From: Chrysomallon squamiferum
Lineage: Eukaryota > Animalia > Mollusca
DNA length: 64,000 nucleotides
Assembly (NCBI GenBank): GCA_012295275.1
Contig: CM022677.1
Span: forward strand, 21,576,001-21,640,000
Direction of reading: 5' to 3'
The number at the start of each line of letters is the position of its first letter. Position 1 is the stretch's first letter. A model generated the notes under the pieces. That model was not told the origin of the DNA and searched no databases. It was given only the letters and a program-made list of their open reading frames with translations. Below, in pieces: positions 13,201 through 16,791 of this stretch. The position numbers and the translations under genes were made by a program.

Positions 13201-16200
13201 TCACGGAGAATATTTACAGATAAAACCCTGTTTCCTGAGGCAGTTGGCATCATTCCACGAGAAACGTAATGCGCGACTTAATTCCAAGCAGTCCTCATCT
13301 CTGCGATAATTGTCGGGTTGTCCTTGATAAAAATTTGTGTAATTAATTGGTTCGGGTCCCCGTCTTGACATCCACCTGAACTTTCCTTCTGTCTGCTTAT
13401 CACTGCCGCCGATCCAGTATGCGTCAGCTGAAAGTGAAAGCACGCAGACACGGTAATAGTAGCTCTACTAGTCGCAGGAGCATAATAATAATAATAATAG
13501 AAGTAAAAGTGTAAGGATAACATCAGCAGTAGGAGCAGTAGTGCAAAGCAATGTGTTAATGCATTTTTAATACACTCGTAAACTGTCACCGTTAACATAT
13601 ATCGTCCGATGTTTAGTAAAAGTTTAAAAAAAAAAAAAAAAAAAAAACATCCGCCATTTTGTGAGAGTTCGGTCTCTGATTGTCTAACAAAATACAGAGG
13701 ATTGAAAGGAACAGTCAAAAGAGATTCAAATTTATTTAGGTGACAGTCTGCGGTTTTACCAAATGTTTAGTCTACTAATTGTATATCGTGAAAAAAAGGT
13801 TCAATATAAAATGAAAATAAATAAGTGTATATTTACAATTAGTTTACATTTAGCTTTTATCTTTAGAACCGTCTTCCCTCATCTCTCTCTCTCTCTCTCT
13901 CTCTCTCTCTCTCTCTCTCTCTCTCTCTCTCTCTCTCTCTCTCTCTCTCTCTCTCTCTCTCTCTCTCTCTCTCTCTTTCTCTCTTTCTCTCTCTCTCTGT
14001 CTCTCTCTGTCTGTCTCTCTCCCTCTCTCTCTCTCTCTCTCTCTCTCTCTCTCTCTCTCTCTCTCCCTCTGTCTCTCTCTCTCTGTCTCTCTCTCTCTGT
14101 CTGTCTCTCTGTCTCTTTCTCTCTGTATCTCTGTCTGTCTCTCTCTCTGTCTGTCTGTCTGTCTCTCTCTCTGTCTCTCTCTCTCTTTGTCTCTCTCTCT
14201 CTCTCTCTCTCTCTCTCTCTCTCTGTCTGTCTGTCTGTCTCTCTCTCTCTGTCTCTCTCTCTGATAATCTGTAAAATCTGTAGTCAGACTGTAGCAAATA
14301 CGCGTTTTAACCGATTGAATATAAACAGATGAAAAGACAAATATACAAACCTGTGCCAAGTTTAAGTGCTGCACGTATTGCACGATCCTCTGATTCCGAC
14401 TCAATAATCAGCAAATAGGCATTCATTGTCTTGCAGTACTCCTAAATAACAAGAACAAGAACAATACTACTACTACTACTACTACTACTACTACTACTAC
14501 TACTACTACTACTAATAATAATAATAATAATTATTATTATTATTATTACTACTACTACTACTTCTACTACTACCACTACTACTACTACTAATTATTATTA
14601 TAATATTACTATTACTACTACTATTATTACTACTACTTCTACGAATAATAATAATAATGATAATAATAATAATAATAATAATAATAATAATAATAATACG
14701 AAGAAGGAAAACAATAAGAATAATACTAAAATTAATAATAATAAAAATAATAATAATACAGGAAGCAACAATAGCAATAATAATAATTACAATAATAATA
14801 ATAGTAGCAATGACAGAACAAGAGCAACAACAACAACAATAATAATAATAAAGTTAAATTTTAATCACTTCTGCCTAAGTAATATCTTTGGTACTATGTC
14901 TTTACTAAACACTTTATTAGAACTACATCTTTACTATCTTGTGTATTAGTAGTATTTATTTACTAACTCGTATATTGGTAATATATATTTGGTGAATTCT
15001 ATAATAGTATGTACGACTCCAGTGACTTGTATGTCAGCATGTATGTCCTTAATAACTTGCGTATATCATAATGTATATTTAGTAATTTGTAGATCAATAG
15101 GTACGTGTTTAACAACTCGTATATGAGCATTTGTATTTGTTTAACAACTGGTATGTAAGTGAGTATCTTTAAAAGCTTGACTTCTTTCACAAATTACATA
15201 TCTTGATGTATTACCTTTGCTTTCTCCCAAGTTAAAGTAAATTGATTTGGAGAAAACCAATAGCAGTTGTTTTCTAAATGAAGGAAGCCAGTCGTACAGT
15301 GGTGTTCATCTAAATTGCCAAAATATTATTTGTTTAAATAAAAAATATACATACGCAATTACAAAGACAGATGGATAGAGAAACAAATATTCTGAATAAA
15401 TGTGTACATGTGTGTGTGTGTGTTTTTCTGTGTGTTTGTGTGATAATCTGTAAAATCTACAATTTCAAATTATACATTCTAACATATTGCTTCGTAAAAC
15501 CTTCGAATGCCCCTGAATATACATTTATACAGAGATGGAAGGATGAACGGGTGGGCAGACAGATGTCAGAAACACAGACAGAGACATAACCGGGTAGAGA
15601 GATAGATAAAAAAAGGTCACATAGATATATATATATATATATATATATATAGAGAGAGAGAGAGAGAGAGAGAGAGAGAGAGAGAGAGAGAGAGAGAGAG
15701 AGAGAGAGAGAGAGAGAGAGAGAGAGAGAGAGAGAGAGATGGATGGATGGATATACCGTGAGATGGAGAGCTAAACTATTGTAAGTAATACCCTTGTAAA
15801 TCGCTTGATCATAAATATCAGACAAACATAAAAACCTGTGCCATGTTTTGATTCTGCTGGTGTTGCAGAAGCCGCGAAGTCCGATGTTATCTGCAGCAAA
15901 CGGAAATGGATTGCCTTGCAGTACTCCTAAATAATAATAATCGTAATAATAATAATAATAATAATAATGATGATGATGATGATGATGATGATGATGATAA
16001 TAATAATAATAATAATAATAAAGGTAACAAAAAAAAACAATGCAATAATATTAGTAGTACGAAAGAAACAAGAGAAACAACAACAATAATAACAAAAAGG
16101 TTTCATTTTATCACTTCTGCCTCAGTACTGTGTCTTTGATAGTATGTCTTTACTAAATTGTATATTACTTCTATGTCTTTACTAACTTCTATATTAGTAT

Positions 16201-16791
16201 GTATGCCATTTTTAACTTGTATGACACTATGTATATCTAGCAACTTGTAGATCAAAATGTATGTCATTGATAACTCGTATATCAGTATTTGTATATATTT
16301 AATCACTGGCATATAAAGGTGTATGTTTAAAAACTGGTAACCTTTCATAAATTATATATCAGTATACATTACCAATGCTTCCAACCTGGTAGTAGGAATC
16401 GTTTTCGGAGAAACCCAGCGACATCCAGTTTTTTGTAGGAACGAAGCCATCCGGACAACGTTCTGCGTCTACATCACCAAAATATTTTTAGTTTACAAAA
16501 AAGTAGCTACGCAGTTACAAAGACAGAGAGATGCTTAAATGAAAAAATCTATAGAGAAACAAATATTTTATATGTAAGTTTGTCCATCTATCTATCTGTC
16601 TATCTATCTATCTATCTATCTATCTATCTATCTGTCTATCTATCTATATATCTATCTATCTATGTATATATATATAAAGACAGCCAGAGAAACAAATAGA
16701 TACTGCTTTGGGATTTAAAAGCTGCTAAACACTTACTTGCATCAATGCAGATAGAAGAAAGAAGAACACAGAGAAAATAAATGGTCTTCAT
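13201..16791 (-). CDS. C-type lectin gene C (QPD/WND) with duplicated exon 2-3 cassette; exons 16791-16737, 16468-16373 (E2', +1 frameshift), 15926-15836 (E3'), 15309-15215, 14441-14351, 13427-13201
   Basis: E1 MKTIYFLCVLLSSICIDA; E2' AERCPDGFVPT..GCRWVSPKTIPTTRLEAL; E3' EYCKAIHFRLLQITSDFAASATPAESKHGT; E2 EHHCTTGFLHLENNCYWFSPNQFTLTWEKAK; E3 EYCKTMNAYLLIIESESEDRAIRAALKLGT; E4 ADAYWIGGSD...QPDNYRRDEDCLELSRALRFSWNDANCLRKQGFICKYSP*. All exons have AG/GT boundaries. E1-E2-E3-E4 gives an intact 155-aa lectin. Confidence 0.85.
13882..14262. repeat. Compound (CT)n/(CTGT)n microsatellite in the last intron of gene C
   Basis: Direct reading. Confidence 0.95.

What the first reader, a model, noticed from the sequence alone, without database searches (positions are those of the whole stretch)
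13201..16791. Lectin gene with a duplicated exon-2/3 cassette: 1.5-domain protein or combinatorial splicing
Seen: gene C has one signal exon, two exon-2/exon-3 pairs and one exon 4. E1, E3' and E3 all end in phase 1, and E2' and E2 end in phase 0. Once the 1-bp indel in E2' is corrected, E1-E2'-E3'-E2-E3-E4, E1-E2-E3-E4, E1-E2'-E3'-E4 and E1-E2'-E3-E4 are all in frame. The upstream pair has lost the conserved TW tryptophan, and its alpha-2 region reads AASATPAESKHGT, which looks like a linker. Known: the alpha-1 Cys (EYCK) normally pairs with the terminal FIC Cys in exon 4. Inference: the long form would carry an N-terminal half-CTLD with an unpaired Cys, a possible oligomerisation or cross-linking module; alternatively the locus diversifies lectins by exon-pair choice.
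Basis: partly seen in the sequence, partly recalled or inferred. Interest (0 to 1): 0.8.

Follow-up and report, generated by a model that had tools for sequence, protein, structure and literature searches.

The report
Two fused lectin genes, half-domain remnant
In a cluster of duplicated sugar-binding lectin genes, likely from a snail, the front half of one gene sits directly before the rest of its neighbour, likely joined by a deletion, so the cell would make an ordinary lectin with an extra, degraded half-domain in front; this transcript is untested and nothing shows that the extra piece has a job.

Summary
The six exons and their phases are real. The 1-bp break in E2' is not in the animals: every contig spanning it in 4 of 4 laid runs lacks the extra base, so the 217-codon frame is open. 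But E2'/E3' is not a copy of this gene's own exons. The same block lies undeleted at 59-64 kb as a 3'-truncated gene (X: E1-E2'-E3') followed by a second gene (Y) with its own exon 1; gene C is that block minus 1.65 kb (junction unchecked in reads). The upstream pair lost 5-7 of 16-19 otherwise invariant residues, as much as free drift predicts, yet kept frame and splice sites in both copies (simulated chance about 1% or less). Best reading: a read-through chimera making a QPD/WND lectin with a fold-free 60-residue extension and one spare cysteine. No RNA run was found; the spliced protein could not be folded. An oligomerisation role is unsupported; combinatorial splicing is unlikely, although a predicted 89-bp (CU)n/(GA)n duplex loops out E2-E3. 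The scan noted similar hybrid or linker-like duplicates in other genomes. New variant of a known kind; modest interest.

The parts
16737..16791 (-). E1, ATG and hydrophobic signal-like peptide; from the upstream (X-type) parent
   Evidence: 46 of 48 nt identical to X exon 1, 46 of 55 to Y exon 1; signal peptide by inspection only
16373..16468 (-). E2', degenerate N-terminal CTLD exon (C0, C0' kept; Tyr and Trp replaced by Arg); one surplus base near 16427-16428 in the assembly only
15836..15926 (-). E3', degenerate alpha-1/alpha-2 exon with the C1 cysteine that has no C4 partner of its own; alpha-2 region polar with a proline
15652..15739 (-). (CT)44 tract in the transcript sense; 5' arm of a predicted 89-bp duplex around E2-E3
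   Evidence: predicted fold
15435..15441 (-). Fusion junction: X intron-3 sequence joined to the end of Y intron 1; about 1650 bp (62559-60910 in the undeleted block) missing
   Evidence: not checked in reads
15215..15309 (-). E2, intact N-terminal CTLD exon from the downstream (Y-type) parent
14351..14441 (-). E3, intact alpha-1/alpha-2 exon (EYCK), Y-type
13883..13976 (-). (GA)47 tract in intron E3-E4; 3' arm of the predicted duplex; the C-versus-Y divergence rises from about 7% to 17-21% across this repeat region
13201..13427 (-). E4, C-terminal CTLD half with QPD and WND motifs, C2-C4 and stop
   Evidence: Pfam Lectin_C 46.7 bits, cut-off 22.6
63012..64000 (-). X: paralogous E1 (cut by the window end), E2 63607-63513 and E3 63102-63012, in frame, no exon 4 of its own
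60910..62559 (-). Segment absent from gene C: rest of X intron 3, about 130 bp of upstream homology, Y exon 1 (61693-61639, donor GTAGAT) and most of Y intron 1
59360..60779 (-). Y: E2 60779-60685, E3 60227-60137, E4 59585-59360 (one base short as assembled)

Best explanation
Gene C is likely a chimera of two tandem C-type lectin paralogs that would be spliced straight through all six exons into a predicted secreted 217-aa protein: an intact galactose-type lectin domain behind a likely unfolded 60-residue remnant of another lectin's front half. Shown: exon layout, open frame in the read data, the undeleted X-Y block at 59-64 kb, the separate ancestry of the two exon pairs, the loss of core residues. 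Inferred order: an old tandem pair lost X's exon 4 and most of Y's upstream region; transcripts from X's promoter then ran through Y, skipping Y's exon 1 (a first exon has no acceptor); the block duplicated; the C copy then deleted 1.65 kb between a (GA)n and a (CA)n tract. The remnant would be kept in frame because the working domain lies downstream, not because it folds or does a job; the spare Cys is a by-product.
For: C aligns collinearly with 59-64 kb except for one 1.65-kb gap; the missing piece matches intron 3, upstream region, exon 1 and intron 1 of other paralogs in that order, so it was deleted from C, not inserted in XY. Exon tree: C' with X, C with Y; intron tree gives no X-Y sister pair (X/C' with G4/G6, 84/84). 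Indel absent in 4 of 4 runs. Donors and acceptors of E2'/E3' look like those of the constitutive exons; Y's exon-1 donor is the one deviant of 8 first-intron donors. Invariant residues lost: 5-7 of 16-19 in X and C' against 0-3 in the five complete lineages; free drift along the intron-derived stem (0.15) predicts 4.9 of 16 lost in both copies, but frame, stops and splice dinucleotides would survive in both in only 0.07-0.4% of runs (0.7-1.3% at stem 0.10). No AATAAA/ATTAAA between E3' and E2 in C. Duplication plus secondary deletion making chimeras is known (PMC5460883, passages), as are STR-bounded deletions in an immune cluster (PMC5103432, passages).
Against: No transcript evidence: none of the 22 listed runs is a host RNA run with a real share. 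The junction was not checked in reads. The survival figure is weakened by ascertainment (we look because it is intact), an indel rate taken from 4 events and a stand-in start sequence; five acceptor-less orphan exon-2 copies in the window also keep an open frame and donor and also lost the Trp. One contig in run X3 has a Trp codon at the position, so less degraded X-like copies may exist and part of the constraint may date from a complete gene. A predicted 89-bp duplex could loop out E2-E3 and reduce the long form. Omega on the X/C' clade is 2.7-3.1 and above 1 (p 0.007-0.014), which pure 'no job' does not predict.
Confidence: 0.55

Rival explanations
1. E2'/E3' are dead remnants of a truncated neighbour: they are skipped (giving a normal 155-aa lectin) or the whole fused locus is silent and decaying.
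For: Partial duplicates are routine here: five orphan exon-2 copies, all with open frames. No purifying selection on C' versus X (14 nonsynonymous, 3 synonymous differences; introns about 7%). Survival since the C/X split alone is 8-15%. Y's exon 4 is one base short as assembled.
Against: Splice sites intact in both copies; indel absent and no stop-forming change among the E2' differences listed in 4 runs; amount of residue loss needs a long unconstrained path over which survival is about 1% or less.
Confidence: 0.22
2. The extension is a selected module whose spare cysteine links subunits into dimers or cross-links the lectin to a matrix.
For: All three Cys kept in both copies; omega above 1 on the clade; exon stem 0.33 against intron stem 0.15; a bivalve lectin is a disulfide-linked dimer with putative free Cys (PMC9965136, passages); extensions drive perlucin aggregation (PMC4019660, passages).
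Against: Omega is not different from the cluster background (p 0.10-0.14); acceptor-less orphans (2.5-2.7, not significant) and complete gene G3 (2.65) give similar point values; 10-11 of 16 invariant residues are kept anyway, so three Cys is no excess; C' and X differ at 11 nonsynonymous sites in E3'.
Confidence: 0.1
3. The locus diversifies lectins by regulated exon-pair choice, helped by a (CU)n/(GA)n duplex that loops out E2-E3.
For: All four forms are in frame. Only C, of 7 units scanned, has perfect CT and GA tracts in different introns around exons; predicted 89-bp helix, duplex -200 kcal/mol; in XY the CT tract has a local partner that the deletion removed. Looping-out by intronic duplexes is a described mechanism (PMC7404189, passages).
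Against: Forms using E2' or E3' in the domain lack core Tyr/Trp/Ile and an amphipathic alpha-2, so would likely misfold; exon 4, which holds the sugar site, is common to all forms; microsatellites are abundant in the window so the pairing can be accidental; no RNA.
Confidence: 0.07
4. The C arrangement is an assembly artefact or an allele of the X-Y block, so that no fused gene exists.
For: The assembly has at least one local error here; the junction lies in repeats and was not checked in reads.
Against: C and XY differ by 5-8% in introns and 17-21% near exon 4; C-type and X-type contigs both occur in 4 of 4 runs.
Confidence: 0.06

Closest known systems
Single-domain long-form secreted C-type lectins of molluscs (perlucin-like; Pfam PF00059)
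   Same: E2-E4 give six cysteines and QPD/WND motifs; exon 4 passes the Pfam cut-off and its nearest atlas cluster is named perlucin family, commonest Mollusca (0.94).
   Different: An extra, degenerate front half of a second domain precedes the domain; no close named relative was found (best named hit with a high identity: a Gigantopelta aegis protein, 52%).
Chimeric genes from tandem duplication and secondary deletion (Drosophila yakuba, PMC5460883)
   Same: 5' part of one gene joined to the 3' part of another; later deletion inside the duplicate.
   Different: Here both parents are paralogs, so the join repeats half a domain; expression is untested.
Sea-urchin Sp185/333 cluster (PMC5103432)
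   Same: Clustered, similar genes with STRs, segmental duplications, partial copies and GA-STR-associated deletions.
   Different: Different protein family; that paper's passages describe gene loss and partial segments, not a fused half-domain protein.
Perlucin splice variants of Haliotis laevigata (PMC4019660)
   Same: Mollusc C-type lectin with an extension outside the domain that varies between forms and may drive aggregation.
   Different: Those are C-terminal 10-mer repeats shown in cDNA and protein; here the extension is N-terminal, derived from a lectin half, and not shown as RNA.
Mutually exclusive exon clusters such as Dscam (recalled, no call)
   Same: Homologous exons of compatible phase in tandem.
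   Different: Co-inclusion is in frame, nothing enforces exclusivity, and one alternative is degenerate.

Membership tests
C-type lectin domain, long form (E2-E3-E4) | Match to PF00059 above the curated cut-off | tested here: met
   Exon 4 alone 46.7 bits vs 22.6
C-type lectin domain, long form (E2-E3-E4) | Six cysteines C0, C0', C1-C4 | tested here: met
   2+1+3 Cys in E2, E3, E4; pairing per PMC9965136 passages
C-type lectin domain, long form (E2-E3-E4) | Ca2+/sugar motifs (QPD or EPN, WND) | tested here: met
   QPD and WND in exon 4; QPD linked to galactose in PMC9965136 and PMC514892 passages
C-type lectin domain, long form (E2-E3-E4) | Calcium-dependent sugar binding | not testable with these tools
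   needs protein
C-type lectin domain (upstream pair E2'-E3') | Conserved core residues and a C-terminal half | tested here: not met
   5-7 of 16-19 invariant residues lost; alpha-2 moment 0.24-0.29 with Pro vs 0.38-1.44; no exon-4 hit between X exon 3 and Y exon 1
Internal tandem exon duplication | The two exon pairs are each other's closest relatives and the duplicated unit holds only those exons | tested here: not met
   63% between pairs, 90% and 94% to X and Y; unit included an exon 1; deep branching of the intron tree only 84/84, so an old partial duplication including exon 1 is not excluded
Chimeric gene by deletion-fusion | Unfused parental arrangement identifiable and collinear | tested here: met
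Chimeric gene by deletion-fusion | Junction present in reads | not tested
   no read result for the junction; only E2' and its flanks were covered
Chimeric gene by deletion-fusion | Fused transcript observed | not testable with these tools
   no host RNA run offered
Mutually exclusive / combinatorial exon system | Alternatives share phase | tested here: met
Mutually exclusive / combinatorial exon system | Each alternative encodes an intact part | tested here: not met
Mutually exclusive / combinatorial exon system | A device that prevents co-inclusion | tested here: inconclusive
   co-inclusion in frame, introns 268-923 nt; only candidate is a predicted microsatellite duplex in C
Mutually exclusive / combinatorial exon system | Several isoforms seen in RNA | not testable with these tools

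The most novel reading that the evidence does not exclude
The front half of a lectin domain, freed from its fold by gene fusion, was positively selected into a new cysteine-bearing N-terminal module that polymerises a galactose-type lectin, and the later deletion created an 89-bp microsatellite RNA duplex that switches splicing between this long form and a swapped-half short form.
Probability: 0.1. Interest if true: 0.65.

Novelty: new variant of a known kind. Interest (0 to 1): 0.33.

Why it matters
If the long form is made, one window holds two stages of the birth of a new protein part: a fused pair with the second gene's first exon still in place, and a derived copy with it deleted. It is a small, testable case of a domain fragment turning into a linker-like extension under frame-only constraint. 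It also shows that an apparent frameshift in this assembly is not in the animals. It does not, on present evidence, reveal a new lectin-diversifying system.

Tried and rejected
No whole genome was held, so copies outside the window could not be counted. Protein searches found no close relative: exon 4 against longer proteins, 0 of 2 candidates; E3' with its intronic read-through, 0 of 5 candidates at E<=10; both are weak negatives. The representative search and the profile search returned mostly multi-domain lectins. Pfam gave no hit for E3', X exon 2 or X exon 3, but none for the intact E2 either, so this is uninformative. A scan of the 263 fetched proteins for adjacent front-half/front-half/back-half found 1 case, a nested multi-domain protein unlike this one; the set is biased to long proteins. 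The spliced 217-aa form could not be folded or tested as a dimer, because the folding tools take only unspliced window sequence. Contig depths of X-type versus C-type E2' (about 1 to 4-fold) were not used as copy numbers. Omega above 1 was rejected as proof of function after controls. E3' as a terminal exon was considered (both copies read 21 codons into the intron) and set aside for C, which has no AATAAA/ATTAAA before E2. Paper searches for a described half-domain-plus-domain mollusc lectin found none; the library lacks most subscription journals, and no supplements were read.

Full report
Observation. On the minus strand, gene C has six GT-AG exons: E1 16791-16737, E2' 16468-16373, E3' 15926-15836, E2 15309-15215, E3 14441-14351, E4 13427-13201. 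As assembled E2' is 96 nt and the forms that pair it with an exon 3 stop early; E1-E2-E3-E4 gives a normal 155-aa lectin. Exon 4 matches Pfam Lectin_C above its cut-off, carries QPD and WND, and its nearest atlas cluster is a perlucin-named, mostly molluscan one. An earlier scan note calls this genome snail-like; I tested that only partly.

The indel. I laid 4 of the 7 runs that hold at least half of the region's words on 16050-16540. In each run the contigs lacking one base at 16427 or 16428 account for the whole depth at that place (127.2+30.6, 20.9+5.9, 296+124.2, 44.5+49.9). One class is the X paralog; the other is C itself: a 168-nt contig has one other letter and one gap over a stretch with 13 C-versus-X differences. 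The assembled letters look like a blend of the two classes (inference). These are contigs, which drop rare variants, so a private allele in the assembled animal is not excluded.

What the cassette is. The window is a cluster of at least nine lectin units plus five orphan exon-2 copies. Self-comparison shows 12.9-16.8 kb repeated at 59-64 kb. There, a unit X (E1, E2, E3, no exon-4 hit) is followed by a unit Y with its own exon 1 (61693-61639) and exons 2-4. C aligns with this block throughout except for one gap of about 1650 bp (62559-60910). The missing piece matches, in order, intron 3, upstream region, exon 1 and intron 1 of other paralogs, so it was deleted from C. Its ends lie at a (GA)n and a (CA)n tract. 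In the exon tree C's upstream pair groups with X (90% identity, 100/100) and its downstream pair with Y (94%, 97/98); the pairs are 63% identical to each other. In an intron tree X/C' is not sister to Y/C (84/84 with G4/G6), which leans to fusion of neighbours but does not exclude an old partial duplication that included exon 1. C is further mosaic: introns differ from XY by 5-8% down to the start of intron 3 and by 17-21% from there through exon 4. The junction itself was not checked in reads; C-type and X-type contigs both occur in 4 of 4 runs, which favours paralogs over alleles.

State of the upstream pair. X and C' have lost 5-7 of the 16-19 residues invariant among four complete lineages, against 0-3 for each complete lineage left out in turn. 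The alpha-2 stretch has one large hydrophobic residue and a proline. The three cysteines remain; with C0-C0', C1-C4, C2-C3 pairing (PMC9965136, passages) the long form has one spare Cys. Splice sites equal those of the constitutive paralog exons. In simulation, free drift along the intron-derived stem of 0.15 loses 4.9 of 16 invariant residues in both copies, matching the 5 seen, but leaves frame, stops and splice dinucleotides intact in both copies in only 0.07-0.4% of runs (0.7-1.3% at stem 0.10; 8-12% if drift began only at the C/X split; single-path version). That pattern, fold released but frame kept, is what obligatory exons upstream of a working domain should show. Y keeps only about 130 bp of upstream homology and has the one deviant exon-1 donor, consistent with read-through from X even before the deletion (inference). 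Against this: we look at the pair because it survived; the indel rate rests on 4 events; the start sequence was a stand-in; 5 of 5 acceptor-less orphan exon-2 copies also keep an open frame and lost the Trp; and one contig in one run has a Trp codon at the lost position. A branch codon model gives omega 2.7-3.1 on the X/C' clade, above 1 (p 0.007-0.014) but not above the cluster background of 1.3 (p 0.10-0.14); the orphans (2.5-2.7, not significant) and gene G3 (2.65) give similar values, so I do not count it as proof of a new function. Since the C/X split the pair shows 14 nonsynonymous and 3 synonymous differences, against 7 and 4 for the downstream pair.

Splicing choice. Nothing in frame or intron length forces exclusivity, all forms share exon 4 with the sugar site, and forms that place E2' or E3' inside the domain would lack core residues. 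Such duplexes can loop out exons (PMC7404189, passages). It is a prediction in a repeat-rich window, and no host RNA run was offered.

Mechanism, committed. Most likely (0.55) C is transcribed from the X-type promoter and spliced through six exons to a secreted lectin with an intact QPD/WND domain and a loose 60-residue front extension, kept readable for the sake of the domain behind it. Rivals: skipped or silent remnant (0.22), selected cross-linking module (0.10), regulated exon-pair choice (0.07), artefact or allele (0.06).

Comparison with what is known. Chimeras from duplication and secondary deletion are described in Drosophila (PMC5460883, passages); STR-associated duplication and deletion in the sea-urchin Sp185/333 cluster (PMC5103432, passages); extensions that vary between lectin forms in abalone perlucin (PMC4019660, passages). 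PMC514892 was seen in two passages, PMC4346834 only as a listing. Searches for a described half-plus-whole-domain mollusc lectin found none. Solved relatives are ordinary C-type domains (137 sequences). Of 263 fetched proteins, 1 had adjacent front halves, in a different nested layout. Earlier scan notes on other genomes report a hybrid gene in a decaying lectin cluster and duplicated exons turned linkers; these are unchecked notes, not support. Verdict: a real, new variant of a known kind; the process is ordinary, the intact half-domain extension is a modest curiosity; interest 0.33.

Noticed in passing
window 59419-59422: Exon 4 of unit Y is one base short as assembled, which would remove its last motifs; it may be an assembly error like the one in E2'.
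   Followed up: no
window 19060-19150, 28458-28548, 37971-38061, 48062-48152, 56493-56583 (+): Five orphan exon-2 copies without an acceptor, exon 1 or exon 3; all keep an open frame and donor and have Ser in place of the conserved Trp.
   Followed up: partly
window about 27300-55400: Three tandem units of about 10 kb, 84-95% identical, each with a lectin gene (G4-G6) carrying EPN and a changed WND motif (WND, WID, WKD).
   Followed up: partly
window 16387 (run X3): A contig more divergent than X over 16355-16426 has a Trp codon where C and X have Arg: a third X-like copy or allele may exist.
   Followed up: no
window 13428-14290: C and Y jump from about 7% to 17-21% divergence across the (GA)n tract, so exon 4 of C or Y probably came from another paralog by recombination.
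   Followed up: partly
window 10259-11800 (+): A divergent lectin gene (G2, 39-47% nucleotide identity to the others in exons 2-3) with an EPN motif; its exon 1 was not located.
   Followed up: partly
protein P0112 (unnamed, 1728 aa): Three C-type front halves followed by three back halves, suggesting nested domains or a gene-model artefact.
   Followed up: no
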